Below, one piece after another: positions 1,921 to 48,524 of a DNA stretch of 64,000 nt (position 1 is its first letter; the number at the start of each line of letters is the position of its first letter). Both the position numbers and the translations under genes were made by a program. Source of the stretch: a phage; sequence record PZ445511.1; one strand, written 5' to 3'. The notes beneath the pieces are model-generated. The model worked only from the letters and a program-made list of their open reading frames with translations, made no database searches and was not told the origin of the DNA.

Positions 1921-3795
1921 TTATTTAGCGCGAATGTCTTGATGTTTCACTCGACCCATAACCTCATGTTGTTTACCTGGGTTAAACGGACGAGCACCTG
2001 GATTTCCAAGATATCCACAAACTCGACGAGTTACCTCAAGAGTCTCAGGATCATGATTGCCACAAATTGGGCATTTGAAACCATCCTCAGAAGCTATAGT
2101 TTCACCCAAGAACCCACATTCCCCACAAGAGTCTACTGGAGTATTAATACCGAAGTAATGAACTTTACTTGCAGCATAGTTAATAACCCATTCCAGTGCA
2201 TCAGGGAATCGTTTCATATCAGGCAATTCCACATAGGAAATGCACCCACCAGAAGCAATTGGGGTAAAGTTAGACTCATAATCGAACTTCACGTTCGGAG
2301 CAACCTTACGCTCCACATCAAGGTGATGAGAGTTAGTGTAATATCCTTTAACCAGAATATCTTCATGCTCTGGGAAATACTCACGATCTAGACGACAGAA
2401 GCGATCACATAGAGATTCAGATGGTGTAGCATACAGACTATACCCTAATTGAGTCTCTTCCTTCTTCTGATCAGCACGATCACGCATGTATTGTAGCACA
2501 CGTTGAACGAACTTGATACAGGATTCAGACATTGTATCTACATCTTTACCAAACATGAACTGTAACATTTCGTGGCAGCCAATATATCCTAGAGATACAG
2601 AAGCACGCTTGTAGAAATGATCAAATACATATTCATCTGGCCCCAGACGTAATCCAAAGGCTCCTGACATATAGAGGATGGGCGCAGCTTTAGCTTGAAT
2701 GTACTTTAAGCGATCAACCCTCCACTCCAATGCTTTTAACGCGGTATCCACACGCAGCTCAAGCAGATCGAAGAATAGATCAATATTACCTTCCGCTTCG
2801 ATAGCAATTCGAGGTAGGTTTACAGAAACAACGCCTAAGTTGTTACGACCAGAAGTTTCACCATCTTCCGCAGCAGCCAGGAATGAACGACAGCCCATAG
2901 AGACTTTGTAGTCTCCCGTAACTTCTACAACCTTATCATAACTGATGTAGTCAGGATACATACGTTCAGCAGTACATTTCATAGCTAACTTCTTGATATC
3001 ATAGTTAACATCACCAGGTTTCATGTTTACGCCATCACGCAAAACAAATACCAGTTTAGGGAAGATAGCTGTACGTTTATTGATACCCAAACCATCCATA
3101 CGCACTTCTAGGATTGCTTTCTGTACAAGACGTGCTTCCCAAGAAGTTCCTAGACCAAACCCAAAGGTAATAAACGGACTTTGACCATTAGAGTTGAACA
3201 TCGTATTGATTTCATACTCCAGGCCCTGACAGGCATCGTAAACTTCTTTCTCAGTCATTTCCGTAGCCATTACAGATGCTTTAGCTTCATCCTTAGTCCA
3301 ACGCTTTGCAAACGCATGATTCTTATCATAAGACTTACGAACATAAGGAGCCAATACTTCATCTAATCGGTCTACAGAAGTACCCCCATATTGATGTGAA
3401 CTAACCTGAGTGATAATCTGAGCTGTGATAGCAGCCGCAGTAGTAATAGAGTTTGGTGTACTGATTTCAGCATTACCAACCTTCATACCATTCTTCAACA
3501 TATCTTCCAAAGCAACCAGGCAACAGTTAGTCATACCTAACGCAGCGTAATCAGCATCATGGAAGTGAATATCACCAATCATGTGAGCATTTCGAATCTG
3601 GATTGGCATTTCTTCCAGAATCAGATGTTTACTCAATTCCCCTGCAAGCATGTCCCTTTGTGTAGGGAAACGTTCGCTTGGTTTGTTCGCATTATTAAAG
3701 AGTAGCTCTTCATCTGCTGATCCTTCGATAATTTCTTTGCAGTTTCGAATTAAGGACTGCACTCCTTTATACTTTAGTTCTTCATTGAGATTCAT
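1921..3795 (-). CDS. nrdD: anaerobic ribonucleoside-triphosphate reductase
   Basis: 624 aa; C-terminal glycyl-radical motif RVCGY plus Cys4 cluster CGECG..CPICG; GGAGG RBS; consensus promoter upstream. Confidence 0.85.
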   Translation of the reverse strand: MNLNEELKYKGVQSLIRNCKEIIEGSADEELLFNNANKPSERFPTQRDMLAGELSKHLILEEMPIQIRNAHMIGDIHFHDADYAALGMTNCCLVALEDMLKNGMKVGNAEISTPNSITTAAAITAQIITQVSSHQYGGTSVDRLDEVLAPYVRKSYDKNHAFAKRWTKDEAKASVMATEMTEKEVYDACQGLEYEINTMFNSNGQSPFITFGFGLGTSWEARLVQKAILEVRMDGLGINKRTAIFPKLVFVLRDGVNMKPGDVNYDIKKLAMKCTAERMYPDYISYDKVVEVTGDYKVSMGCRSFLAAAEDGETSGRNNLGVVSVNLPRIAIEAEGNIDLFFDLLELRVDTALKALEWRVDRLKYIQAKAAPILYMSGAFGLRLGPDEYVFDHFYKRASVSLGYIGCHEMLQFMFGKDVDTMSESCIKFVQRVLQYMRDRADQKKEETQLGYSLYATPSESLCDRFCRLDREYFPEHEDILVKGYYTNSHHLDVERKVAPNVKFDYESNFTPIASGGCISYVELPDMKRFPDALEWVINYAASKVHYFGINTPVDSCGECGFLGETIASEDGFKCPICGNHDPETLEVTRRVCGYLGNPGARPFNPGKQHEVMGRVKHQDIRAK

Positions 3796-3824
3796 TACAC
3801 CCTCCTTCTCTAATTAAGACTACT

Positions 3825-3853
3825 ATTATAACTCATTCGAAGGCGGATGTCAA
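3825..3853 (-). promoter_or_regulatory. sigma70 promoter for nrdD (TTGACA-17-TATAAT)
   Basis: perfect consensus hexamers on minus strand, 17-bp spacer, about 30 nt upstream of nrdD start. Confidence 0.7.
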
Positions 3854-3904
3854 CAATATTTTACCATAAAGTTCTGTAACATGATCTGAGTCAAAAAATT
3901 TTAT

Positions 3905-3933
3905 TTGCCAACCTCTATTAAAAATAGTATAAT
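3905..3933 (+). promoter_or_regulatory. sigma70 promoter (TTGCCA-17-TATAAT)
   Basis: hexamers with 17-bp spacer in divergent nrdD/phoH intergenic region. Confidence 0.5.
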
Positions 3934-4045
3934 CACACGCCCGTGTACGCGATATAAAATGATTATCTAGTACCATACATCTCCCAATAAAAGCAAGTAA
4001 ATTTTTTATTTAAAAGCAATATCATGGGTTTATTTAAAATTATAC

Positions 4046-4074
4046 TTGCTTTTTGCTGTAAACCTTGTTATAAT
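4046..4074 (+). promoter_or_regulatory. early promoter (TTGCTT-17-TATAAT)
   Basis: member of repeated promoter family; upstream of phoH. Confidence 0.7.
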
Positions 4075-4150
4075 ATATTTGTAAGTTGATAAACAAGATC
4101 TCTTTGTTGATCCTCTGTTAGAAGCGAAGTACACTATAGGAGTGTTATTT

Positions 4151-4903
4151 ATGGGAAAAGCACGTCAAAAAAGAGAGAACCGCAATGGTTCAAGAAAGCG
4201 TGGCAACAAGTATGAGAGTAACGTAATTCAAGCAGATTTCTCTGGTGATTACGCCAATCCAGTTGCTAAATCCCTAGTTGGTAAAAACCGTGAGCAAAAA
4301 TCATATATCAATATGATCAAGAACAACACAGTGACTGTGGGTATTGGTGAACCAGGTACTGGTAAAACCTTTATTCCGTCCGTTCTTGCAGCTCAGGAAC
4401 TCGTAGACATTCACTCAGATATTGAGCAAGTGATCCTCGTGCGTCCGAACGAACCTCTAGGTAAATCTCTTGGTATGCTCCCAGGTGATCTGGCAGAAAA
4501 GCTAGAGCCTTGGTTGGAACCAATAGCCGATGGCATGAAATGGGCAATCGGTGATCACGCCTACAAAGGATATGTCGAACGTCAGAAAATTAAATTCCTG
4601 GCTATCGAACATGCCCGTGGCCGAACTTTCAACAACTCCTATGTAATTGTCGATGAAGCTCAGAATATCTCCGTTGAAGCAATGATCTGTCTCCTGACTC
4701 GTGTAGGACAAGATTGTCGTTTAATTATCTGTGGGGATATAGCGCAGAAAGACATCAAGGGTGATTCAGGTCTAGCACTTCTTATGGAAGTCTATGAGAA
4801 GTATGAAAACTCTCCTTTCTCTATGATCGAACTGATCGACAACGTTCGCTCACCAGAGTCTAAAGCATTCTACGATATCTTTAAGGATATGGGGAAGGTG
4901 TAA
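4151..4903 (+). CDS. phoH: PhoH-like ATPase
   Basis: Walker A GEPGTGKT; ORF track starts at GTG 4142, ATG 4151 has TAGGAG RBS. Confidence 0.8.
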   Translation: MGKARQKRENRNGSRKRGNKYESNVIQADFSGDYANPVAKSLVGKNREQKSYINMIKNNTVTVGIGEPGTGKTFIPSVLAAQELVDIHSDIEQVILVRPNEPLGKSLGMLPGDLAEKLEPWLEPIADGMKWAIGDHAYKGYVERQKIKFLAIEHARGRTFNNSYVIVDEAQNISVEAMICLLTRVGQDCRLIICGDIAQKDIKGDSGLALLMEVYEKYENSPFSMIELIDNVRSPESKAFYDIFKDMGKV

Positions 4904-4904
4904 T

Positions 4905-5147
4905 ATGGGAAACGTCGTACATCTGCACCGCAAAACTAAGATTCACCGTACTTCACTGAGTGCTGCTAATATGATTACACGTAAGGAAGGGGAAGAAAGT
5001 CCTAAGACTACCCTAGCGTGGAAAATTGTAGCCTCTAATCCAAATCGGCCTTTTAATTATAACGAATTGAGTACTTCTATAGACATTCTTATGGCTAAGG
5101 AAATACGACAGAAACTAACTGATATGACCGATAAACTTAAATGGTAA
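4905..5147 (+). CDS. hypothetical protein
   Basis: 80 aa ORF immediately after phoH. Confidence 0.45.
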   Translation: MGNVVHLHRKTKIHRTSLSAANMITRKEGEESPKTTLAWKIVASNPNRPFNYNELSTSIDILMAKEIRQKLTDMTDKLKW

Positions 5148-5155
5148 GACAGACG

Positions 5156-5188
5156 AGCCTGGGTATGAAAATATCCGGGCTCTTTTTA
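5156..5188 (+). terminator. rho-independent terminator
   Basis: 8-bp GC stem (gagcctgg/ccgggctc) followed by TTTTT. Confidence 0.55.
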
Positions 5189-5270
5189 TCTGTAAAATTG
5201 TACTTGCAAAATGACCCAAAACAAAGTAGAATATTTCCTAAATCCTGATAACTACAAAAAGGAAAGCCAA

Positions 5271-7601
5271 ATGAGCCATCGCATCGAAAAAGTAATTAAA
5301 CGTGACGGTACTGTTCAGGACTTTGCTCCTGAAAAACTCAATGATTGGGCTGCATGGGCATGTAAAGATACTGACGTAAGTTGGTCTGCCGTAGTTATGG
5401 CTGCCCTGAAAAATCTACCCAAAGGTGTTGTAGACTCCGATACACTCCAAGATGTGTTAATTAAAGCCGCTGAAGGTCTTATCAAAGACAACCCAGCATA
5501 TGATACTGTAGCAAAGGAATTACGTCTTGCGCAGATGCGTAAACGCCTATATGATTCCTTTGAACCTCCTTCTCTGCGTTTCTTCCACGATCATATGATT
5601 CGTGTTGGCGCCTGGGAAGACATGAGTGCATGGATTAGCGATGATCAGTTTGATGCTCTGAATCAAGTTATTGATCATGATCGCGATCGTTTATTCACCA
5701 GTGGTGGACTGAAACAGTTCTTCGACAAGTATTCCCGTCGTAATATTGCAACTGGTGAAATTTATGAAACCCCGCAGTTTGCCTACATGGGTATGGCAAT
5801 GGCGATGTTATCTCAACCTAACTGGACAATTCTCGATGCAATCGACCTCTACAACGCAATGTCACTCCATAAAATCAACGTGCCGACTCCACCTCTCGTG
5901 GGTCTTAGGAGCAGCGACCGCGGTTTTGCTTCTTGTTGTCTTGTTGATAGTACTGATACCCTCGATTCAATCGACACAGCCGAGCACATCGTCTTCAAAA
6001 TGGTCGCAGCCAGAGCGGGAATCGGGTATCATCTTGAAAGCCGATCAATTGCTGATCCGGTGCGAAATGGGGCATTCCCGCATTCCGGAAAACTGCCATA
6101 TTATCGACACATTGACCGATCAGTAAAAGCTAACACTCAGCAAACCCGTGGTGGTTCTGCTACTGTGTCTTACCCATACTTCGATCCTGAAATCATTCAG
6201 TTGATGCAGGTTAAGCAGCAACGTGCTACAGACGAGAATAAAATCGATAAGATGGATTACTCTCTGAGCTTTAACAACCTTCTGTTAAAACGTTACCTGA
6301 AAAATGAAGATATTACGCTAATGTCCTACTTCTACGCACCAGAAGTTCATGAAGCGTTTTATGGCGAAGATGAGGCTAAGTTTGAAGAAATCTACGTGGC
6401 AGCGGAGAAACGTGTGGCATCTCTTACAAAGATCGACCACGAAGGAAAAACAATTCCAGCAGCTCCTAGAATCTCTGCAAAAGAAATCCTAGATACTTGG
6501 TTACGTATCCGTATGGAAACAGGGCGTATGTATGCTCATCACATTGGTGAATCTAACCGTCATGGTAACTTCCTTGACCCGATTCGTATGACCAACCTTT
6601 GTGTTGAAATTACTCAGCCAACCCGTCCATTCCATCACATTACGGAGCTGTATAAGACCCAAGATCAGTTAGACGATATGCGTCCAGAAGATATTGGTGA
6701 AGTATCTCTGTGTAACTTAGGTGGTGTTGTACTAGGTCGTATGGAATCTCTGGCTGAATGGGAGAAAACTTGCTACATTCTTCTGAAATTCGTTGATACA
6801 ATCATCGAGATTCAGGATTACCCATTCCCAACTATGGAGTACACGGCTAAGAAACGTCGTAACGTTGGTATTGGTCTGATGAACGCAGCAGGTGCAATGG
6901 CAGCCGAAGGTTTGGCTTACGAAGGTGTTGAAGCCCGTAACTGGATTCACCGTGAAGCTGAAAAGCTGTCCTACTTCCTACATAAAGCCTCTGTACGTCT
7001 GGCTAAAGAACAAGGTGCATGTGACTGGTTTAATCGTACTAAACCATCCAAAGGAACTCTGGTAATCGACACGTACAAGAAAACTGTTGATGAACTGGTA
7101 ACTGTAGGTCTAGAAATGGATTGGGAATCTCTGCGTGCAGATATTCTGAAATATGGTATGCGCAACTCTGTTCTGACTGCTCAGATGCCGGGTGAAAGTT
7201 CCTCTGTACTGCTAGGTGTTACTAACTCTATCGAGCCGCCTCGTAAGATTGTATCTATCAAGGGTAGTGCAGTTAATAAAGTAATTGCAATTGCTCCAGG
7301 TGCAACCGATTGGGATACATTAATGAGTTATAAACTGGCTTATGATGTAGATCGTATCGAGTGGATCAAATGGGTAGCAACCATGCAGAAATTCTTCAGT
7401 CAGTCTATCAGTACGAATATGTACTATGACTACACCAAGTTTGAGAATGAAATCATTCCTGGTCCAGTAGTAGTTCGTGATTTCATGACTGCTGTTAAGT
7501 ACGGCTGGAAAACTTGGTACTACGCTAACTTCAACACTGAAAATGGTGGTGGAGCTGGTGAAGAAGCAGCAGGTTGTGCATCAGGTGGTTGTAACCTATA
7601 A
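5271..7601 (+). CDS. nrdA: ribonucleotide reductase class Ia large subunit
   Basis: ORF 5211..7601 (796 aa); ATP-cone-like N-terminus, C-terminal Cys pair; ATG 5271 has AAGGA RBS, 5211 has none. Confidence 0.85.
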   Translation: MSHRIEKVIKRDGTVQDFAPEKLNDWAAWACKDTDVSWSAVVMAALKNLPKGVVDSDTLQDVLIKAAEGLIKDNPAYDTVAKELRLAQMRKRLYDSFEPPSLRFFHDHMIRVGAWEDMSAWISDDQFDALNQVIDHDRDRLFTSGGLKQFFDKYSRRNIATGEIYETPQFAYMGMAMAMLSQPNWTILDAIDLYNAMSLHKINVPTPPLVGLRSSDRGFASCCLVDSTDTLDSIDTAEHIVFKMVAARAGIGYHLESRSIADPVRNGAFPHSGKLPYYRHIDRSVKANTQQTRGGSATVSYPYFDPEIIQLMQVKQQRATDENKIDKMDYSLSFNNLLLKRYLKNEDITLMSYFYAPEVHEAFYGEDEAKFEEIYVAAEKRVASLTKIDHEGKTIPAAPRISAKEILDTWLRIRMETGRMYAHHIGESNRHGNFLDPIRMTNLCVEITQPTRPFHHITELYKTQDQLDDMRPEDIGEVSLCNLGGVVLGRMESLAEWEKTCYILLKFVDTIIEIQDYPFPTMEYTAKKRRNVGIGLMNAAGAMAAEGLAYEGVEARNWIHREAEKLSYFLHKASVRLAKEQGACDWFNRTKPSKGTLVIDTYKKTVDELVTVGLEMDWESLRADILKYGMRNSVLTAQMPGESSSVLLGVTNSIEPPRKIVSIKGSAVNKVIAIAPGATDWDTLMSYKLAYDVDRIEWIKWVATMQKFFSQSISTNMYYDYTKFENEIIPGPVVVRDFMTAVKYGWKTWYYANFNTENGGGAGEEAAGCASGGCNL

Positions 7602-7609
7602 TAAAAACA

Positions 7610-7636
7610 AGGAGATCTTCGGGTCTCCTTTTTTCT
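7610..7636 (+). terminator. rho-independent terminator (UUCG tetraloop)
   Basis: stem aggagatc/ggtctcct, loop ttcg, followed by TTTTTT. Confidence 0.65.
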
Positions 7637-7648
7637 TTGAAATTTTAC

Positions 7649-7677
7649 TTGCTAATCGCTACCAGATTTGCTATAAT
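7649..7677 (+). promoter_or_regulatory. early promoter (TTGCTA-17-TATAAT)
   Basis: promoter family member upstream of nrdB. Confidence 0.7.
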
Positions 7678-7708
7678 ATTCCTGAAATAGTGAGAAAGAG
7701 GAAAATCA

Positions 7709-10592: not shown

Positions 10593-10597
10593 TTCAA

Positions 10598-10622
10598 ATA
10601 GCCCTTCGGGGCTATTATATTT
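10598..10622 (+). terminator. hairpin terminator (UUCG loop)
   Basis: tagccc-ttcg-gggcta followed by T-rich tract. Confidence 0.5.
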
Positions 10623-11686: not shown

Positions 11687-12199
11687 ATGCTAACACAAGA
11701 AATTCTCAAGCAATTGCTAGATTATGATCCACTATCCGGTATTTTTACATGGAAAACTAGAGATCCCGATAAGGGAGGATTTAATAAGCAATTTGCAGGT
11801 AAAGTAGCTGGAACCAAAAAATCTGGATATATCAGAATACAGATTAACGGAAAACCATACGATGCCCATAGACTAGCCTTCTTATTTATGGAGGGCTATA
11901 TACCAGAGCTGATAGACCATAAAGACAGAGTGGGAACAAACAACGCTTGGGACAATCTTAGAAAAGCTACTGATAGTCAAAATGCTGCAAACCAATCCGT
12001 CCGATCTACTAATATTTCTGGATATAAAAATGTATCCTGGGATAAGGCTAGAAATAAATGGTTAGTTAATATCATGAAGGATGGTAAAACTATATATGGT
12101 GGTAGATTCTCTGAATTAGAGGATGCAGTAAATGCTGCCAATACTCTACGTTTGTCTTTATTTGGTAGCTTTGCTCTTTACGAAGAATTTATAAAATAA
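11687..12199 (+). CDS. HNH homing endonuclease (HNH plus AP2-like domain)
   Basis: 170 aa; ..DHKD..N..N motif and GYKNVSW AP2-type motif. Confidence 0.75.
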   Translation: MLTQEILKQLLDYDPLSGIFTWKTRDPDKGGFNKQFAGKVAGTKKSGYIRIQINGKPYDAHRLAFLFMEGYIPELIDHKDRVGTNNAWDNLRKATDSQNAANQSVRSTNISGYKNVSWDKARNKWLVNIMKDGKTIYGGRFSELEDAVNAANTLRLSLFGSFALYEEFIK

Positions 12200-12563: not shown

Positions 12564-12592
12564 TTGCTAAACGCTTCAAAATTTCGTATAAT
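12564..12592 (+). promoter_or_regulatory. early promoter (TTGCTA-17-TATAAT)
   Basis: promoter family member. Confidence 0.7.
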
Positions 12593-12630
12593 ATATCTCA
12601 TAAATTGATCAACAAAAAGGAAAACAAATA

Positions 12631-13146
12631 ATGGCTAAGCAGAAAAACGCAAAAACTCAGGCAGCTCCGGCAGTTAAAACTTTCGCTCAGACCGAAGCCA
12701 ATCGTAAGGCTCGTCTGGAACGTCATCTGCGTGAGCATCCTACTGATGCTCAGGCTCAGACTGCCCTGAAGTCTGCGGCTCCGGTTCGCCAGAAGCCGAA
12801 GGCCAAGAACTCTACTCGCGCAACTGCTAAGCAGGTTGTGTTCATCAAGGGTGAAGGTCATAAGTCTGTACCTGTAACTCTGAGCTTTAATGGCGGTGCT
12901 GAGATGTTCGCCCGCAACGGTATGGCTCTGAAAGACTACGAAAAAGCAGTCAATCAGAAGCGTAAGCCAATGGCTGACGTAATGCGTGAATCCCGTGGAC
13001 AGTTTGGCTCCGTTAAACCGAATATTTTCGGTGTAGAGTATAGCCGTGACAACGTTCGCGCTCTGTGCTACGGTATAGGTATTAAGTTTACTGGTGCTTC
13101 TGATCGTAAATCCGCTAAACCTACTCGTAAGCGTAAAGCGAAGTAA
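12631..13146 (+). CDS. basic Lys/Ala-rich protein, possible DNA-binding
   Basis: 171 aa; CGT/CTG-rich codon usage unlike neighbours; RBS AAAGGAAA. Confidence 0.6.
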   Translation: MAKQKNAKTQAAPAVKTFAQTEANRKARLERHLREHPTDAQAQTALKSAAPVRQKPKAKNSTRATAKQVVFIKGEGHKSVPVTLSFNGGAEMFARNGMALKDYEKAVNQKRKPMADVMRESRGQFGSVKPNIFGVEYSRDNVRALCYGIGIKFTGASDRKSAKPTRKRKAK

Positions 13147-13207
13147 TGATTGATGGGGCGAAAGCCCCATATACTAACTCTTTCTCTGACTAATCAAGGA
13201 TATTTTT

Positions 13208-13423
13208 ATGTTCTCTAAGAAACCACGTTCCGTTACTGAAATCGTTGCTTCCTTTACCACTATTACTGATGAACTTCAAGCTCGTATTGAAGCTGACCAG
13301 AAAACTGCTGCTGATATTCAGAAACAGCAGGAAGAACTCGCTCTGAAACTGGCTGAAACCAATAAGAGTGAAAAATCTGCTCAAACTATTAAGGAAAATA
13401 TCCTTAAACTGCTGGGCAAGTAA
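13208..13423 (+). CDS. hypothetical coiled-coil protein
   Basis: 71 aa; same optimised codon usage; followed by GNRA-loop hairpin. Confidence 0.5.
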   Translation: MFSKKPRSVTEIVASFTTITDELQARIEADQKTAADIQKQQEELALKLAETNKSEKSAQTIKENILKLLGK

Positions 13424-13464
13424 TTTAAATCAGGGGGCGAAAGCCCCTCTTATTTGGAGAAACT

Positions 13465-13677
13465 ATGCGTAACTTCGTTGCAAAGAATGATTTTAACCGT
13501 GCTAGCACTCACAAGTCTGCTAGAGACTACACTCGTCTTTCTAAACATGAGCTTCTAGAAGAAATCATGGAAGAAAACTGGGATGTTAGTGAAAATGGAA
13601 CAGACCTGTTTGAAGAAGAGGAACTTCCTCTGAAAGACCCCAAACAGTGGGAGTCTATTAAAGAGACAGCTCTTTAA
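13465..13677 (+). CDS. hypothetical acidic protein
   Basis: 70 aa ORF. Confidence 0.5.
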   Translation: MRNFVAKNDFNRASTHKSARDYTRLSKHELLEEIMEENWDVSENGTDLFEEEELPLKDPKQWESIKETAL

Positions 13678-13707
13678 TAGTTTTCTACAACAATAAAGGA
13701 CATAATT

Positions 13708-14409
13708 ATGAAATTCAAGCCCTTTGGTATGCTGGACATTGAATCTCTAGGTACTCCAGGAAATTGCGGTACTACTCATATTGCAATGCCTTCTTTCGCT
13801 TTTGTAGCGATGCACGGAATTGATAAAGATCCTGATCTGGTATTCGTTACTCTAGACGTTCAAGATCAGCTTAATGCGGGTGCTAAGGTAACTGCCTCTA
13901 CTATTGCATTCTGGATGGATCAAGCTAAAAACAGTCCATCTGCGCTCCATATTATGGAGGCTCTAAATGGTCGTAATCCTAAACTGATTGCCTTCCGTGA
14001 TGGTAAGCATCACTGCACTAATGACGTAGGCTCTAATTATGCTGCCTTCTCTATGGCTCAGAACATTATGGAATTGTCTCTAGGAGATAATGCTCTGTAT
14101 TATGGCAATGGCCCAGAGTTTGATATGACAATCTACTCTGCAAATACGTTCCATGCCGGAACCCATGAAGAAATAGTTCCGTGGAAATTCTGGAACTTAG
14201 GTAACGTTCGATCTTTCCGTAATCAGTGGATGCAAGCTGGTTATAGCTATAAAGATCTAGAAGCCGAAGGTGCTAGCTGGGCAAAAGCTAAAATGGAAAA
14301 GATGGACACCATTCGTTATGGAATCTATCCTGTGAAGCATGATCCAGCATTCGATGCTTTAGTTGAAAGTTATTGTGTAGCCGTCATGATCGAAAAAATC
14401 AAAATTTGA
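13708..14409 (+). CDS. DEDDh-type 3'-5' exonuclease-like protein
   Basis: 233 aa; N-terminal LDIESLG (Exo I-like D.E) and C-terminal H....D (HDPAFDAL) motifs. Confidence 0.45.
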   Translation: MKFKPFGMLDIESLGTPGNCGTTHIAMPSFAFVAMHGIDKDPDLVFVTLDVQDQLNAGAKVTASTIAFWMDQAKNSPSALHIMEALNGRNPKLIAFRDGKHHCTNDVGSNYAAFSMAQNIMELSLGDNALYYGNGPEFDMTIYSANTFHAGTHEEIVPWKFWNLGNVRSFRNQWMQAGYSYKDLEAEGASWAKAKMEKMDTIRYGIYPVKHDPAFDALVESYCVAVMIEKIKI

Positions 14410-14410
14410 T

Positions 14411-14439
14411 TTGCTTTCAGCTCCAAAATTCTGTATAAT
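14411..14439 (+). promoter_or_regulatory. early promoter (TTGCTT-17-TATAAT)
   Basis: promoter family member. Confidence 0.7.
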
Positions 14440-14479
14440 ATATTCATAAATTTGAGAGAACAACAAAAGGAAAATAATT

Positions 14480-14662
14480 ATGCCAGTATCTAAAAACGTC
14501 CGTAAAAATGGTAAAGTAGCAAAACGTAACCTGGGTCTGCGTCGTATGGCTGAGCGTCAGTCCGGCATCCAGAAAATCTTTAATGTGCTGAATCGCGCCA
14601 ACCCGAATATTGATAACAGTTCTGATACTGTTCTGCGCACTCTGCTAGCAATCGGTCTGTAA
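14480..14662 (+). CDS. hypothetical small basic protein
   Basis: 60 aa ORF with AAAGGAAAA RBS. Confidence 0.45.
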   Translation: MPVSKNVRKNGKVAKRNLGLRRMAERQSGIQKIFNVLNRANPNIDNSSDTVLRTLLAIGL

Positions 14663-14715
14663 TAGACCATTTTTAAAACAAATTCAAATCTCAAACTTCA
14701 TATAAGGAAGAAATA

Positions 14716-15354
14716 ATGACTACTCGTATCTCTAAAACTCGTGCTCTGGCAACTATCAAGTCTCTAGAAGCTAAAATCCGTAAAGCTACTGAACAACAGC
14801 TTTTGATTGCTGTTGGTGAAGGTAAGGATAAGAACCAAGTTGTAGTTGGCGCTGCAATCGAAGTAGATGCTCTGTCTACTCGTATTAAGACTGATTTCCA
14901 GTCTCTGTTGGATATGATGTCCCAGCGTGATCATCTGAAAGCAGCGCTGATCAAGAGCAATGCTGAAACTGTTGTAGAGATCGGTTCCCGATCTATGACT
15001 GTTGCGGAAGCAATCGAAGCTAAGCGTTCTATGGAACTCAAAGCTCAGTTGCTGGCTAACATGCGTAAGCAGTTCCATGCTGCTACTGTTAAGTTTAACA
15101 CTCAGAAGGCTCAGTTTGATAACAAGTATGAGCGTTTGCAGGATACCATGGCTACCCGCGACAAGAAGACTTCTGAGGATGAAGTTAAGATGCAGCTTAA
15201 CCTGCTGGAACTCAAGAACACTCCGTTCCTGATCGATCCGCTGGAGCTGGAAAAGCTGATCAAGCAACACGACGAAGAATACCAGGATTTTGCAACCAAC
15301 GTTGACTTTGTTCTGTCTGAGTCCAACGCCTCTACTTTTATCGAAGTAGAGTAA
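14716..15354 (+). CDS. hypothetical protein
   Basis: 212 aa; optimised codon usage. Confidence 0.6.
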   Translation: MTTRISKTRALATIKSLEAKIRKATEQQLLIAVGEGKDKNQVVVGAAIEVDALSTRIKTDFQSLLDMMSQRDHLKAALIKSNAETVVEIGSRSMTVAEAIEAKRSMELKAQLLANMRKQFHAATVKFNTQKAQFDNKYERLQDTMATRDKKTSEDEVKMQLNLLELKNTPFLIDPLELEKLIKQHDEEYQDFATNVDFVLSESNASTFIEVE

Positions 15355-15744
15355 TGATTTAAAAGACTAGTAAATCGGTAGACGAAAGCCCAAGCATCTT
15401 ACCTCGCAGCAGCGGTTGAAATACGAGGTTAAATAAGACCGCTGACCATACTATAAAGTATAATCTATTGGAGATTATCTTAATTTATTTTTCGGCAGAT
15501 GTTGCATCTGTCAAAATAAAACAAGACGTCGTTGGTAGTACCAACACAACTTCAAAGATCAACGCTCAAGTATGAAAGCTGAAAAGTTAAAAGCACTCAA
15601 ACTTCTAACCTTCTAAAGCTAAAAGATGCAAAGTATTCGTTGATGATTCAAACCCTAGATCAAAGGTACATGGCTCATAAGATATGGCCTGTGGCGCCTC
15701 TAGGCTGTTTATCGGTTTACTAGTTTCACAATTTAAAAATGTAT

Positions 15745-15803: not shown

Positions 15804-16067
15804 ATGATTTTTCATATTCTTATTGATGATGTGCGTAACCTTCATGGAATGGACATTATAATTCGAACCCCCGAAGCCGCTGTTGAGTTTCTGAATAAAA
15901 CCGATACCACAGGTCATTTCGTTTATATGGATAACGATCTGGCTGTAGATGATATGGAAGGTTATCAAATTCTTCGTTTACTCCTAGAATTTGGTCAGAG
16001 ACCCAAGAAAGTGGTACTAGTAACCTCGAACCCTTCGTCTAAGAGACCATGCGTAATGATCTCTTAG
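15804..16067 (+). CDS. hypothetical protein
   Basis: 87 aa ORF. Confidence 0.5.
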   Translation: MIFHILIDDVRNLHGMDIIIRTPEAAVEFLNKTDTTGHFVYMDNDLAVDDMEGYQILRLLLEFGQRPKKVVLVTSNPSSKRPCVMIS

Positions 16068-17784: not shown

Positions 17785-18414
17785 TAATAGTGGGGTGCCG
17801 AAACCACTTATGTAACAACACTGCCGTCCTAGTATAATAGGTATTATTAGGGCTTCACCGCCTGAAGATGTGGGTTCGAGTCCCACGGTCGGAAAGAGTT
17901 GGATAACTGGTGCTTCTAATGGCGAAGCAATCGCAGGCAGTTGCGCACTGCCAAAACCACGCGGTAGTTGGTTCCAGGCTAACCAACCACTCTTGAAAAG
18001 TATATACTACGGTTTTGCTTGTTCAGGAAGCTTCGCATCGAAAATCGGAGGTGCGATTTTATCAGACCGCGTGGAGGACGTCTCTCCGTTAAGTGACGAA
18101 AAGTGGGACGATTCAGGTAGAGCTGGATATGGAACACCTATACATATGCGGAGTGCGCACAAAGCATATTGCGGTGGTACTAAACGAAATTAGGAGTCAT
18201 GACCTGCACAAGTTTAGTATGTCATAACCGATGTACATTCAGTACAAAAACCACTGAAGCTAAGATAGATAGTCACCTTGACTTAAACTGGAAGATATTG
18301 TCTGACGGAAGGGCTGCAGAGCTTAATCTGAGGGGGCTGACCCTACCTACCGTCGGGTATCTTTAAGAGTTCTTACGAGAACTCTTAAAGATACCTAAAC
18401 ATTAAGGAATACTG
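17785..18414 (+). ncRNA. structured non-coding region (T-arm-like element and 17-bp perfect hairpin); identity unresolved
   Basis: 630 bp without convincing ORF or promoter; gtgggttcgagtcccac at 17870-17886; hairpin 18357-18394. Confidence 0.3.
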
Positions 18415-26604: not shown

Positions 26605-26678
26605 ACATCCATAGCTCAACTGGTCAGAGCTACCGCCTCTTAAGCGGAGGGTTGAAGGTTCAAGTCCTTCTGGGAGTA
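26605..26678 (+). tRNA. tRNA-Lys(CUU)
   Basis: D-stem gctc/gagc, anticodon loop ctcttaa, T-arm gaagg-ttcaagt-ccttc, CCA; one acceptor mismatch. Confidence 0.5.
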
Positions 26679-26686
26679 CCAAACAA

Positions 26687-28179: not shown

Positions 28180-28439
28180 TTATATAAATTGATGAGGAGA
28201 AATCCTCATCAAAGTTCACTAAGGTATTAGCTCGACCTAGGGCTGGCTGCCAAAAAGCACAATTGCAATTAGACCCCTAATGGCGGGGGATACTTTGCAA
28301 TAAGTTCTAGATTAGTCCACTAGATTCAGTGGCAACTGAATAGTGTATCGGGTTTGTGAAGAGCGGTTATCCTCTACTGGCTAATGTCTGAGGGTAATAC
28401 GCACACCGAGCTAATAGCCTTAGTAAACTTAAAGATTTT
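28180..28439 (+). ncRNA. 260-nt structured leader or small RNA ahead of the tRNA-Ala pair
   Basis: hairpins gatgagga-gaaa-tcctcatc (28191-28210) and ccact-agattc-agtgg; no ORF. Confidence 0.3.
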
Positions 28440-48448: not shown

Positions 48449-48524
48449 TAATAAAGCATGAGCCTCTACGGAGGCTCTAAAATAAAAAGAAGGTCACAAT
48501 GACCTTAAAAACGAGATATAACTA

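What the first reader, a model, noticed from the sequence alone, without database searches (positions are those of the whole stretch)
12631..15354. Block of genes with high-expression-style codon usage and GNRA-loop hairpins
The genes between 12.6 and 15.4 kb are visibly richer in CGT, CTG, GCT and AAC codons than their AT-rich neighbours. Several are followed by tight hairpins with GAAA loops (13156-13169, 13432-13447) rather than U-tract terminators. This fits abundant early proteins with stabilised mRNAs, or a block acquired from another source.
Basis: seen in the sequence. Interest (0 to 1): 0.4.

Follow-up and report, generated by a model that had tools for sequence, protein, structure and literature searches.

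The report
Highly expressed early T5-phage gene units
The block is two short, very strongly transcribed early gene units of a T5-like phage; four of its six genes use the phage's own high-expression codon style and one unit ends at a stable hairpin, so it is ordinary phage gene-expression architecture, not imported DNA.

Summary
The window is a T5-like Salmonella phage (Epseptimavirus). The block corresponds to T5 genes T5.089–T5.085.

**Codon claim:** true for four of six genes (171, 71, 60 and 212 aa). They have the four highest CAI values of 109 window ORFs and rank 5th–8th genome-wide, after major head, D5, SSB and D3. The 70-aa and 233-aa genes are ordinary.

**Not imported DNA:** the bias runs the same way as in the phage's own abundant genes (r=0.69). 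GC3 is barely raised. Orthologues in distant relatives keep the bias.

**Promoters:** the T5 record annotates the known strong promoter P-H207 before the 171-aa gene, and a second T5-type promoter precedes the 60/212-aa pair.

**Expression:** published RNA-seq of the related phage Bas33 puts the 212-aa and 171-aa orthologues 4th and 6th among the roughly 150 phage genes I read. RNA falls about 70-fold directly after the GAAA hairpin.

**Hairpins:** both are real. The second has a U-rich tail and is most likely a terminator. Relatives conserve the stem but not the GNRA loop.

**Extra:** a conserved, unannotated structured RNA region with a co-varying pseudoknot lies just downstream (15385–15730).

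The parts
12564..12592 (+). Early sigma-70 promoter, orthologue of T5 P-H207 (TTGCTA-17-TATAAT)
   Evidence: Promoter scan gives 10/12. The sequence is nearly identical to the stretch annotated 'promoter P-H 207' upstream of T5.089 in NC_005859.
12631..13146 (+). 171-aa basic protein, DUF7022 (T5.089 orthologue), high CAI 0.557
   Evidence: Pfam PF22887 E=3e-79. CAI. The family is found only in Demerecviridae-type sequences. Bas33 orthologue TPM is 7677/6658. The AF2 model is low confidence, pLDDT 63.
13153..13170 (+). Hairpin 1: AUGGGGC-GAAA-GCCCCAU, with no U tract after it
   Evidence: The stem is conserved in relatives; the loop varies among GAAA, GAGA, AGAA, UUCU and UUUA.
13208..13423 (+). 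71-aa coiled-coil-like protein (phrog_2380), CAI 0.561; an indel-polymorphic gene lying between the two hairpin copies
   Evidence: Absent from T5, Bas33 and 8 of 31 IMG/VR Markadamsvirinae loci. Present in 381 phage records, at >=95% identity in 361 of them.
13433..13456 (+). Hairpin 2: GGGGGC-GAAA-GCCCCU plus U-rich tail CUUAUUUG; a likely (leaky) intrinsic terminator or 3' boundary of the high-expression unit
   Evidence: Terminator scan hit. Fold -17.3 kcal/mol, z=-3.9. At the orthologous hairpin in Bas33 the TPM falls from 7677 to 102.
13465..13677 (+). 70-aa protein, DUF7230 N-terminus (T5.088 orthologue), ordinary CAI 0.373
   Evidence: Bas33 orthologue TPM is about 100. No paralogue exists that could explain this by multi-mapping.
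13655..13680 (+). 11-bp A/U-rich hairpin (loop ACAG) overlapping the stop codon, followed by UUUUCU
   Evidence: Terminator scan. Fold -19.5 kcal/mol, z=-5.4. Conserved in T5 and Bas33.
13708..14409 (+). 233-aa Rv2179c-like DEDD 3'-5' exonuclease (T5.087 orthologue), ordinary CAI 0.340
   Evidence: Pfam PF16473 E=1e-7; phrog_255 'exonuclease'. Bas33 TPM 3569/3043.
14411..14439 (+). Second T5-type early promoter (TTGCTT-17-TATAAT)
   Evidence: Pattern match. Orthologous to an annotated, unnamed promoter upstream of T5.086.
14480..14662 (+). 60-aa basic protein (T5.086 orthologue), CAI 0.512
   Evidence: Bas33 TPM 3368/3035.
14716..15354 (+). 212-aa helical protein (T5.085 orthologue; the 'tail fiber' label looks wrong), CAI 0.575, the highest in the window
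   Evidence: AF2 pLDDT 88.5. More than 240 homologues, none with a Pfam domain. Fold matches are only to uncharacterised proteins. Bas33 TPM 8541/6881.
15385..15730 (+). Adjacent ORF-free, unannotated conserved region with co-varying RNA structure; H-type pseudoknot at 15402-15444
   Evidence: No Rfam hit. 'None' annotated under most matches listed, with 437 records covering >=80% of the query. 20 of 49 RNAalifold pairs carry compensatory changes, against 3.4 +/- 1.3 in shuffles and 2-6 in slid controls. All 12 pseudoknot pairs are canonical in 4 lineages.

Best explanation
The block is two short, very highly expressed early transcription units of a T5-like phage.

Unit 1 starts at the orthologue of the known strong T5 promoter P-H207. 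It encodes the 171-aa DUF7022 protein and, in this genome, a 71-aa protein. It ends at a GC-rich tetraloop hairpin with a U-rich tail (13433-13456). That hairpin terminates most transcription and/or protects the 3' end of the upstream mRNA.

Unit 2 starts at a second T5-type promoter (14411-14439) and encodes the 60-aa and 212-aa proteins.

The four genes in these units have been selected for host-preferred (E. coli/Salmonella 'optimal') codons because they are translated in large amounts early in infection. They avoid the codons that the bulk of phage genes use and that phage-encoded tRNAs serve (TTA, CTA, AGA, ACA, GGA, CAA, ATA). The 70-aa and exonuclease genes lie downstream of the terminator, are expressed less, and have ordinary codon usage.

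Shown: the codon ranks, the promoter orthology, the hairpins, their conservation, and RNA levels in an orthologous phage. Inferred: that the hairpin acts as a terminator or stabiliser in this genome, that protein levels follow RNA levels, and that selection for translation efficiency is the cause. The biochemical roles of the four proteins remain unknown.
For: Identity and synteny: 99.9% identical to Salmonella phage PMBT36. Gene-for-gene match to T5.089-T5.085.

Codon bias: four genes are ranks 1-4 of 109 window ORFs with two independent weight sets.

Positive control in the near-identical genome rokbiter: major head 0.715, D5 0.700, SSB 0.660, D3 0.633, then the four block genes at 0.51-0.58, then major tail 0.486.

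The direction of bias correlates with that of the phage's own top genes, Pearson 0.69 and Spearman 0.75 over 59 codons.

The bias is kept in orthologues. T5 has 0.495, 0.429 and 0.526. UTK0009 has 0.55-0.63. DUF7022 genes score 0.46-0.60 in 34 of 36 loci, including the distant KKP_3711 and Sugarlandvirus; the two Pectobacterium phages score 0.32 and 0.40.

Promoters: P-H207 is annotated in T5 and aligned here. T5 core promoters including Ph207 are used as strong promoters, citing Gentz & Bujard 1985 (PMC6146998).

RNA-seq of Bas33 at 20 min (PMC13250531 Dataset S1):
- bas33_0070: 734 TPM
- 0071 (DUF7022): 7677
- 0072, directly after the GAAA hairpin: 102
- 0073: 3569
- 0074: 3368
- 0075 (212 aa): 8541
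- for comparison, major capsid 5136 and D5 22868

The hairpin in Bas33 was verified in sequence. Hairpin 2 passes the terminator scan.

A different-sequence stable tetraloop hairpin, GGAGGC-UUCG-GCCUCC plus a U-rich tail, sits at the same position in the distant phage KKP_3711.
Against: - No expression data exist for this genome, or for any genome carrying the 71-aa gene with two hairpins.
- The 60-aa orthologue is only moderately abundant in Bas33.
- Across 17 neighbouring Bas33 genes the CAI-TPM correlation is weak (rho 0.41, p 0.11).
- Exonuclease RNA in Bas33 is high again after the trough, with no consensus promoter in between. Simple termination therefore does not explain the whole profile; processing and differential decay may contribute.
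- Consensus T5 promoters are frequent (23 in the window) and most drive ordinary-CAI genes, so the promoter alone does not explain the bias.
Confidence: 0.8

Rival explanations
1. The block, or its high-bias genes, was acquired horizontally from a donor with different codon usage, such as the host or another phage.
For: Three of the genes have a somewhat higher GC (0.45-0.50) than their neighbours. The 71-aa gene is an indel polymorphism bounded by repeated hairpins. An HNH homing endonuclease gene lies just upstream at 11687-12199. The 212-aa family occurs in unrelated phages.
Against: - The bias is synonymous and runs the same way as in the phage's own major head, D5, SSB and D3 genes.
- GC3 is 0.32-0.47 against 0.34 for the rest, far from a host-like shift.
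- Preferred codons are largely T-ending optimal codons (GCT, CGT, ACT, TCT, GGT, GTT), the signature of translational selection.
- Synteny and bias are conserved in T5, Epseptimavirus, KKP_3711 and, for DUF7022, Sugarlandvirus.
- DUF7022 is confined to Demerecviridae.
- The two genes in the middle of the block lack the bias.
Confidence: 0.04
2. The hairpins are mainly mRNA-decay barriers or processing signals. They protect the 3' end of the upstream cistron from 3'-5' exonucleases after read-through and cleavage, so they set differential stability within one long transcript and do not terminate transcription.
For: Hairpin 1 has no U tract. In Bas33 the RNA profile is high, then a trough, then high again (7677, 102, 3569) with no consensus promoter before the exonuclease gene. 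That profile fits segmental decay of one transcript. Another strong hairpin lies immediately 5' of the exonuclease gene. Other intergenic extra-stable tetraloop hairpins (UUCG, UACG, GAAA) occur in the window.
Against: Hairpin 2 and the single hairpin of T5 and Bas33 have the U-rich tail expected of an intrinsic terminator. Steady-state RNA-seq cannot distinguish termination from decay. The two mechanisms are not exclusive.
Confidence: 0.3
3. The repeated 14-nt palindrome is primarily a DNA-level element, such as a recombination or cassette boundary or a protein-binding site. The RNA hairpin would then be incidental.
For: The two copies flank exactly the polymorphic 71-aa gene. T5 and Bas33 have one copy and no gene. 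Extra genes in UTK0009 and L018 are also inserted between the copies. Loop variants UUUC and UUCU are exact reverse complements of GAAA and AGAA, as expected from DNA-level inversion or strand switching at a palindrome.
Against: The RNA abundance step sits at the hairpin. The hairpin is always located just after a stop codon with a U-rich tail and the next ribosome-binding site. In KKP_3711 the same position holds a hairpin of different sequence but equal stability, which argues for selection on structure and not on a DNA sequence motif. Recombination between copies may simply be a by-product.
Confidence: 0.15
4. The codon bias is a by-product of local mutational bias or amino-acid composition and does not reflect expression.
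For: The genes are short, so CAI is noisy. The 171-aa protein has an unusual basic, Ala-rich composition.
Against: CAI is computed within synonymous families. Interleaved genes on the same strand and in the same transcript have ordinary values. The bias tracks measured RNA abundance in Bas33 for the two largest genes. It also tracks known abundant proteins genome-wide.
Confidence: 0.03

Closest known systems
Bacteriophage T5 early promoter P-H207 and the T5.089-T5.085 region (NC_005859; Gentz & Bujard 1985 promoter set)
   Same: The region is orthologous. The promoter sequence is almost identical, the gene order is the same, the GGGGCGAAAGCCCC hairpin follows the DUF7022 gene, and a second promoter precedes the 60/212-aa pair.
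   Different: This genome carries an extra 71-aa gene and a second hairpin copy between T5.089 and T5.088. None of the five or six proteins has a described function. No paper held in the library mentions these locus tags.
Translational selection on codon usage in highly expressed genes (Sharp & Li CAI), as seen for abundant phage proteins
   Same: The genes prefer host-optimal codons, the same set as in this phage's major head, D5, SSB and D3 genes. RNA abundance of orthologues is high.
   Different: Lys AAG is preferred (58% against 34-38%), although AAA is the E. coli optimum. The phage encodes a tRNA-Lys(CUU). The genes are small early genes of unknown function and not structural genes.
Intrinsic (Rho-independent) terminators and extra-stable tetraloop hairpins in phage intercistronic regions (the GNRA/UNCG hairpins described for T4 mRNAs; own knowledge)
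   Same: A GC-rich 5-7-bp stem with a GAAA tetraloop sits directly after a stop codon. Hairpin 2 has a U-rich tail. A sharp RNA drop occurs at the orthologous site.
   Different: Hairpin 1 lacks a U tract. The U tract of hairpin 2 is interrupted (CUUAUUUG). The GNRA loop is not conserved in relatives; AGAA, UUCU, UUUA, UUUC and UUCG also occur.
Promoter/stem-loop-bounded gene cassettes in T4-type phages (PeSL modular shuffling; own knowledge)
   Same: Repeated regulatory hairpins flank a small gene that is present or absent among close relatives. Further small genes are inserted at the same spot.
   Different: Here the repeat is a 14-nt terminator-like stem-loop without an associated promoter copy. 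Mobility has not been shown.

Membership tests
Highly expressed genes under translational codon selection | Codon adaptation clearly above the genome background | tested here: met
   Four of six genes are ranks 1-4 of 109 window ORFs, z = 3.0-3.8. The same ranks result with self-derived weights. The 70-aa and 233-aa genes do not meet the criterion.
Highly expressed genes under translational codon selection | Bias in the same direction as in known abundant genes of the same genome | tested here: met
   Pearson 0.69 and Spearman 0.75 against major head, SSB, D5 and D3 over 59 codons.
Highly expressed genes under translational codon selection | Measured high expression | tested here: inconclusive
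   No data exist for this genome. The Bas33 orthologues of the 171-aa and 212-aa genes are 6th and 4th of about 150 genes by TPM. The 60-aa gene is moderate, and the 71-aa gene is absent from Bas33. No protein-level data were obtained.
Highly expressed genes under translational codon selection | Bias conserved in orthologues | tested here: met
   T5, UTK0009, 31 IMG/VR loci, KKP_3711 and Sugarlandvirus.
Intrinsic (Rho-independent) terminator | GC-rich stem-loop | tested here: met
   Both hairpins have 5-7 bp stems with 5 G-C pairs.
Intrinsic (Rho-independent) terminator | U tract immediately 3' of the stem | tested here: inconclusive
   Hairpin 2 has the tail CUUAUUUG (5 U in 8) and passes the scan. 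Hairpin 1 has the tail AUAUACUA and does not meet the criterion.
Intrinsic (Rho-independent) terminator | Transcript 3' ends or an RNA drop at the site | tested here: inconclusive
   A ~70-fold TPM drop occurs at the orthologous hairpin in Bas33. This is steady-state RNA from another phage, and 3' ends were not mapped.
GNRA tetraloop hairpin as a conserved motif | Loop fits GNRA and is kept in relatives | tested here: not met
   The loop is GAAA at both sites in this window. In relatives, hairpin 1 loops include AGAA, UUCU and UUUA. Hairpin 2 is mostly GAAA or GUAA but UUUC in two loci. KKP_3711 has UUCG. The stem is conserved; the GNRA loop is not.
Horizontally acquired island | Composition atypical for the genome and unlike its own highly expressed genes; patchy presence in relatives | tested here: not met
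   GC3 lies within about 2 sd of the rest. The bias equals that of the phage's own top genes. The block is syntenic in all Markadamsvirinae examined. Only the 71-aa gene is patchy.
T5 promoter P-H207 | Sequence and position orthologous to the annotated T5 promoter | tested here: met
   The alignment to NC_005859 45985-46059 is nearly identical from -50 to the start codon. Promoter strength in this phage was not tested.

The most novel reading that the evidence does not exclude
The strongly transcribed 60/212-aa unit may run, without a terminator in the T5/EPS7 group, into a conserved and so far unannotated structured RNA of about 340 nt (window 15385-15730). This RNA begins with an H-type pseudoknot in which an SD-like GGAGG/CGAGG pairs with an anti-SD-like CCUC. 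It continues with A-rich AAAG repeats and a 3' multi-stem domain with an invariant CAUAAGAUAU loop.

On this reading the RNA would be a new phage non-coding RNA class. The four abundant proteins (DUF7022, 71 aa, 60 aa and the widespread 212-aa helical family) would be major uncharacterised players of early T5-type infection.
Probability: 0.35. Interest if true: 0.55.

Novelty: new member of a known kind. Interest (0 to 1): 0.3.

Why it matters
The finding flags which of the many unknown early genes of T5-like phages are made in the largest amounts. These are DUF7022/T5.089, T5.085, T5.086 and the 71-aa gene, and they are the obvious candidates for host-takeover or anti-defence functions.

It also gives a compact natural expression cassette: a very strong promoter, optimised codons and a tetraloop terminator.

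It corrects misleading database labels on these genes ('tail fiber', 'tape measure', 'metallopeptidase').

The mechanism itself (strong promoter, codon adaptation, terminator hairpin) is textbook.

Tried and rejected
- Biopython's built-in E. coli index was absent.
- Greedy ORF picking chose a spurious 190-aa antisense ORF (12598-13170) over the real 171-aa gene. I corrected this by hand.
- I suspected the 14411 promoter was P-N25. From memory it is similar but not identical, and I could not verify it, so I did not claim it. The Gentz & Bujard paper is not held.
- A literature search for T5.085-T5.089 found nothing. No T5 3'-end mapping study was found. The phiR2-01 proteomics supplement is not held.
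- Rfam gave no hit in 10-20 kb other than tRNAs.
- The 171-aa structure model was too poor for a fold search (pLDDT 63). The afdb50 library was unavailable.
- PDB and BFVD fold and profile searches for the 212-aa protein returned only uncharacterised proteins. PDB sequence searches for both proteins gave nothing.
- Genomic contexts of distant 212-aa homologues were uninformative and showed no conserved small partner gene.
- One viral-contig scan was wasted on a wrong gap length. The corrected scan found only T5-like genomes plus chance hits.
- The local CAI-TPM correlation in Bas33 was not significant.
- Multi-mapping as the cause of the bas33_0072 trough was rejected.
Full report
**What the window is.** The 3.2-kb stretch around the finding is 99.9% identical to Salmonella phage PMBT36 and 99.6% identical to rokbiter. 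It has matches at 80% identity or more in 442 T5-like phage records. The window is therefore part of an Epseptimavirus genome (Demerecviridae). It carries the nucleotide-metabolism genes, 28 tRNA genes and, further along, the pre-early region. In T5 itself (NC_005859) the block corresponds to T5.089, T5.088, T5.087, T5.086 and T5.085. The T5 record annotates 'promoter P-H 207' directly upstream of T5.089 and another, unnamed promoter upstream of T5.086. Both promoter regions align almost base for base with the window at 12564-12592 and 14411-14439. Ph207 belongs to the set of 'highly efficient' T5 promoters of Gentz & Bujard 1985, which are still used as strong core promoters (PMC6146998).

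**Checking the codon observation.** I computed CAI with E. coli weights for 109 non-overlapping ORFs in the window. I first replaced a spurious antisense ORF with the real 171-aa gene.
- The 171-aa (0.557), 71-aa (0.561), 60-aa (0.512) and 212-aa (0.575) genes are the four highest values. The remaining ORFs have mean 0.258, sd 0.084 and maximum 0.494.
- The 70-aa (0.373) and 233-aa (0.340) genes are unremarkable.
CTG is 69% of Leu against 17%, CGT 76% of Arg against 44%, GCT 63% against 40%, and AAC 59% against 40%.
The same four genes are ranks 1-4.
- GC3 is only slightly raised, 0.32-0.47 against 0.34 +/- 0.07. The shift is towards T-ending optimal codons plus CTG, CAG and CCG. It is not a general GC shift.

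**Does CAI mean anything in this phage?** I ran a positive control on the annotated genes of the near-identical genome rokbiter. The highest values belong to the major head protein (0.715), D5 (0.700), the SSB (0.660) and D3 (0.633). The four block genes follow, and then the A2-like protein (0.49) and the major tail protein (0.486). The index therefore ranks known abundant products at the top, and the four block genes are 5th-8th of the phage's annotated protein genes. Their codon shift relative to the rest of the genome correlates with the shift in those top genes (Pearson 0.69, Spearman 0.75). This is the phage's own high-expression dialect and not a foreign signature.

The top genes, including the block, almost completely avoid TTA, CTA, AGA, ACA, GGA, ATA and CAA. 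These codons are common in ordinary phage genes and match phage-encoded tRNAs.

**Conservation of the bias.**
- T5 orthologues keep it: T5.089 at 0.495, T5.086 at 0.429 and T5.085 at 0.526, against 0.20-0.38 for neighbours.
- So does phage UTK0009, at 0.55-0.63.
- DUF7022 genes score 0.46-0.60 in 34 of 36 loci examined. These include the distant Enterobacter phage KKP_3711 (34% protein identity) and Klebsiella Sugarlandviruses. The two Pectobacterium phages score 0.32 and 0.40.
- Together with conserved synteny, this rules out recent acquisition of the block.

**Direct expression evidence from a relative.** A 2026 PNAS paper (PMC13250531) provides TPM values for every gene of the Tequintavirus Bas33 (HildyBeyeler) 20 min after infection. 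I matched its coordinates to GenBank MZ501074. In order along the region, replicate 1 / replicate 2:

| Element | TPM |
|---|---|
| bas33_0070 | 734 / 810 |
| P-H207-type promoter | - |
| bas33_0071 (DUF7022) | 7677 / 6658 |
| GAAA hairpin | - |
| bas33_0072 (T5.088-like) | 102 / 92 |
| A/U-rich hairpin | - |
| bas33_0073 (exonuclease) | 3569 / 3043 |
| promoter | - |
| bas33_0074 (60 aa) | 3368 / 3035 |
| bas33_0075 (212 aa) | 8541 / 6881 |
| bas33_0076 | 1826 / 1267 |

For scale, D5 is 22868, D3 10586, the major capsid protein 5136, RNase H 785 and thymidylate synthase 1812. Among the roughly 150 early and late genes listed in the parts I read, the 212-aa and 171-aa orthologues rank 4th and 6th. 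This supports 'abundant early products' at the RNA level. Over just the 17 neighbouring genes the CAI-TPM correlation is weak (rho 0.41, p 0.11), although the two highest-CAI genes are the two highest in TPM.

**The hairpins.**
- GGGGCGAAAGCCCC occurs exactly twice in the window, at 13155-13168 and 13434-13447. With up to two mismatches allowed, 0.11 matches are expected by chance.
- With flanking pairs the stems are 13153-13170 (7 bp) and 13433-13448. The predicted folds are dominated by these hairpins; the second region has z = -3.9.
- Hairpin 1 is followed by AUAUACUA, with no U tract. Hairpin 2 is followed by CUUAUUUG and then the ribosome-binding site of the 70-aa gene, and it passes the terminator scan.
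- T5 and Bas33 have a single copy, followed by UCAUAUUUUGG, directly after the DUF7022 gene. In Bas33 this is exactly where RNA abundance falls about 70-fold.
- The low value of bas33_0072 is not a mapping artefact, because the gene has no paralogue at nucleotide level.
- In this window the drop in CAI from 0.56 to 0.37/0.34 occurs across hairpin 2, not hairpin 1. That fits read-through of hairpin 1 and termination, or a 3'-end boundary, at hairpin 2.

**What relatives say about the hairpin.** I compared 36 loci. The GGGGC/GCCCC stem is invariant throughout Tequintavirus and Epseptimavirus and in the DU_PP_V-like phage L036. The loop is not.
- Hairpin 1 has GAAA, GAGA, AGAA, UUCU or UUUA.
- Hairpin 2 is mostly GAAA, once GUAA and twice UUUC.
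- UUUC and UUCU are the exact reverse complements of GAAA and AGAA, which suggests inversion of the loop at the DNA level.
- The distant phage KKP_3711 has a different hairpin at the same place, GGAGGC-UUCG-GCCUCC plus UAUCUUUUGG.
- Sugarlandviruses have no comparable hairpin.

Selection therefore acts on a stable stem-loop just after this gene, and not on a GNRA loop as such.

**The 71-aa gene.** The two hairpin copies flank the 71-aa gene. That gene is missing in T5, Bas33 and 8 of 31 IMG/VR loci. It is otherwise very conserved: at least 95% identity in 361 of 381 records. Extra small genes in UTK0009 and L018 are inserted in the same interval. Recombination between the repeated stem-loops is a simple explanation for this indel pattern.

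**The proteins.**
- The 171-aa protein is DUF7022. It is basic, mostly predicted as disordered (pLDDT 63) and restricted to Demerecviridae.
- The 233-aa protein is an Rv2179c-like DEDD 3'-5' exonuclease.
- The 212-aa protein gives a confident model (pLDDT 88.5) of long helices with a small sheet. It has more than 240 homologues of similar length in diverse phages and a few bacteria, with no Pfam domain. It matches only uncharacterised structures: PDB 3kdq and several BFVD entries. Its gene neighbourhoods elsewhere are uninformative.
- The database labels 'tail fiber', 'tape measure' and 'metallopeptidase' on these early genes have no support.
- The functions remain unknown. The mechanism I commit to concerns how the genes are expressed, not what the proteins do.

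**Unexplained.** In Bas33 the exonuclease RNA is abundant again after the trough, yet no consensus sigma-70 promoter lies between the hairpin and that gene. Either a non-consensus promoter exists, or a long transcript is processed and the T5.088 segment is selectively degraded. The strong A/U-rich hairpin at 13655-13680 (z = -5.4) may take part in this.

**Noticed next door.** The 450-nt gap after the 212-aa gene has no ORF. Nothing is annotated under most of the matches listed, and 437 phage records cover at least 80% of the query. It has no Rfam match. It is nevertheless conserved from T5 to My1, DU_PP_V and KKP_3711.
- It starts with an H-type pseudoknot at window 15402-15444. All 12 pairs are canonical in four lineages. 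Five of the seven stem-2 pairs and two of the five stem-1 pairs change on both sides.
- RNAalifold on 21 distinct sequences predicts 49 pairs. Twenty have compensatory changes, against 3.4 +/- 1.3 in column shuffles (0 of 500) and 2-6 when partners are slid. One caveat applies: the structure was derived from the same alignment, and most of the variation comes from three distant sequences.
- In the distant phages a GAAA/GAGA-loop terminator separates the 212-aa gene from this element. In the T5/EPS7 group no terminator is visible, so the strong promoter may read into it.

**Verdict.** The 'abundant early genes' reading is supported. The 'foreign block' reading is not. The emphasis on GNRA loops is not borne out by relatives. 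The architecture is a known kind: strong promoter, codon-adapted genes and a hairpin terminator or stabiliser. Here it is applied to genes nobody has characterised.

Noticed in passing
window 15385-15730 (pseudoknot 15402-15444); also L002, L005 6224-6535, L036, L039: An ORF-free, unannotated, conserved region sits after the 212-aa gene and has co-varying RNA structure. It has an H-type pseudoknot (CCUCG/CGAGG interleaved with CAGCGGU/ACCGCUG), AAAG-rich repeats, and a 3' multi-stem domain with an invariant CAUAAGAUAU loop. Twenty of 49 predicted pairs are compensated, against about 3 in shuffles. There is no Rfam family.
   Followed up: partly
window 13153-13448; T5 L002 15140-15520; L069 3848-3890: The 71-aa gene lies exactly between two copies of the 14-nt stem-loop. 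It is absent, with a single stem-loop, in T5, Bas33 and 8 of 31 other loci. UTK0009 and L018 carry a further small gene in the same interval. This looks like a hairpin-bounded indel hotspot.
   Followed up: partly
L013, L018, L022-L032, L006 (hairpin after the DUF7022 gene): The hairpin loop varies among GAAA, GAGA, AGAA, UUCU, UUUA and UUUC, while the stem is invariant. UUUC and UUCU are exact reverse complements of GAAA and AGAA, which suggests loop inversion at the DNA level.
   Followed up: partly
L069 3889-4855 (bas33_0072/0073); window 13465-14409: In published Bas33 RNA-seq the T5.088-like gene has about 100 TPM. Both neighbours on the same strand have 3000-7700 TPM. No consensus promoter precedes the exonuclease gene, so the source of its RNA is unexplained.
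   Followed up: partly
window 12598-13170 (- strand): A 190-aa antisense ORF spans and exceeds the real 171-aa gene. It is a by-product of the strong codon bias and misleads longest-ORF gene calling.
   Followed up: yes
window 12631-15354 and tRNA-Lys(CUU) at 26605-26681: The high-CAI block genes prefer Lys AAG (58% against 34-38% elsewhere), against the E. coli optimum AAA. The phage encodes a tRNA-Lys with anticodon CUU as well as UUU.
   Followed up: no
window 17822-17895: ARAGORN calls a tRNA with anticodon UCA (reported as tRNA-SeC). It is 'tRNA-OTHER' in rokbiter and scores only 33 bits in Rfam. It may be a UGA-reading or degenerate tRNA.
   Followed up: no
window 15804-16067: The 87-aa gene after the gap has a cREC_REC 'cyclic-phosphate processing receiver' domain (PF20274, E=3e-12). 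In Bas33 the orthologous gene is annotated as intein-containing.
   Followed up: no
window 12564, 17267, 40809 and 20 other sites: The T5 early promoter consensus TTGCT-N17-TATAAT occurs 23 times, against 0.37 expected. Three copies share an almost identical 29-nt core (TTGCTAAACGCTTCAAAATT..), which makes them possible recombination substrates.
   Followed up: no
window 10597-10616, 18356-18395, 28189-28212, 48460-48477: Other intergenic perfect hairpins have extra-stable tetraloops (UUCG, UACG, GAAA, UACG), one with an 18-bp stem. Such hairpins are a general feature of this genome's intercistronic regions.
   Followed up: no
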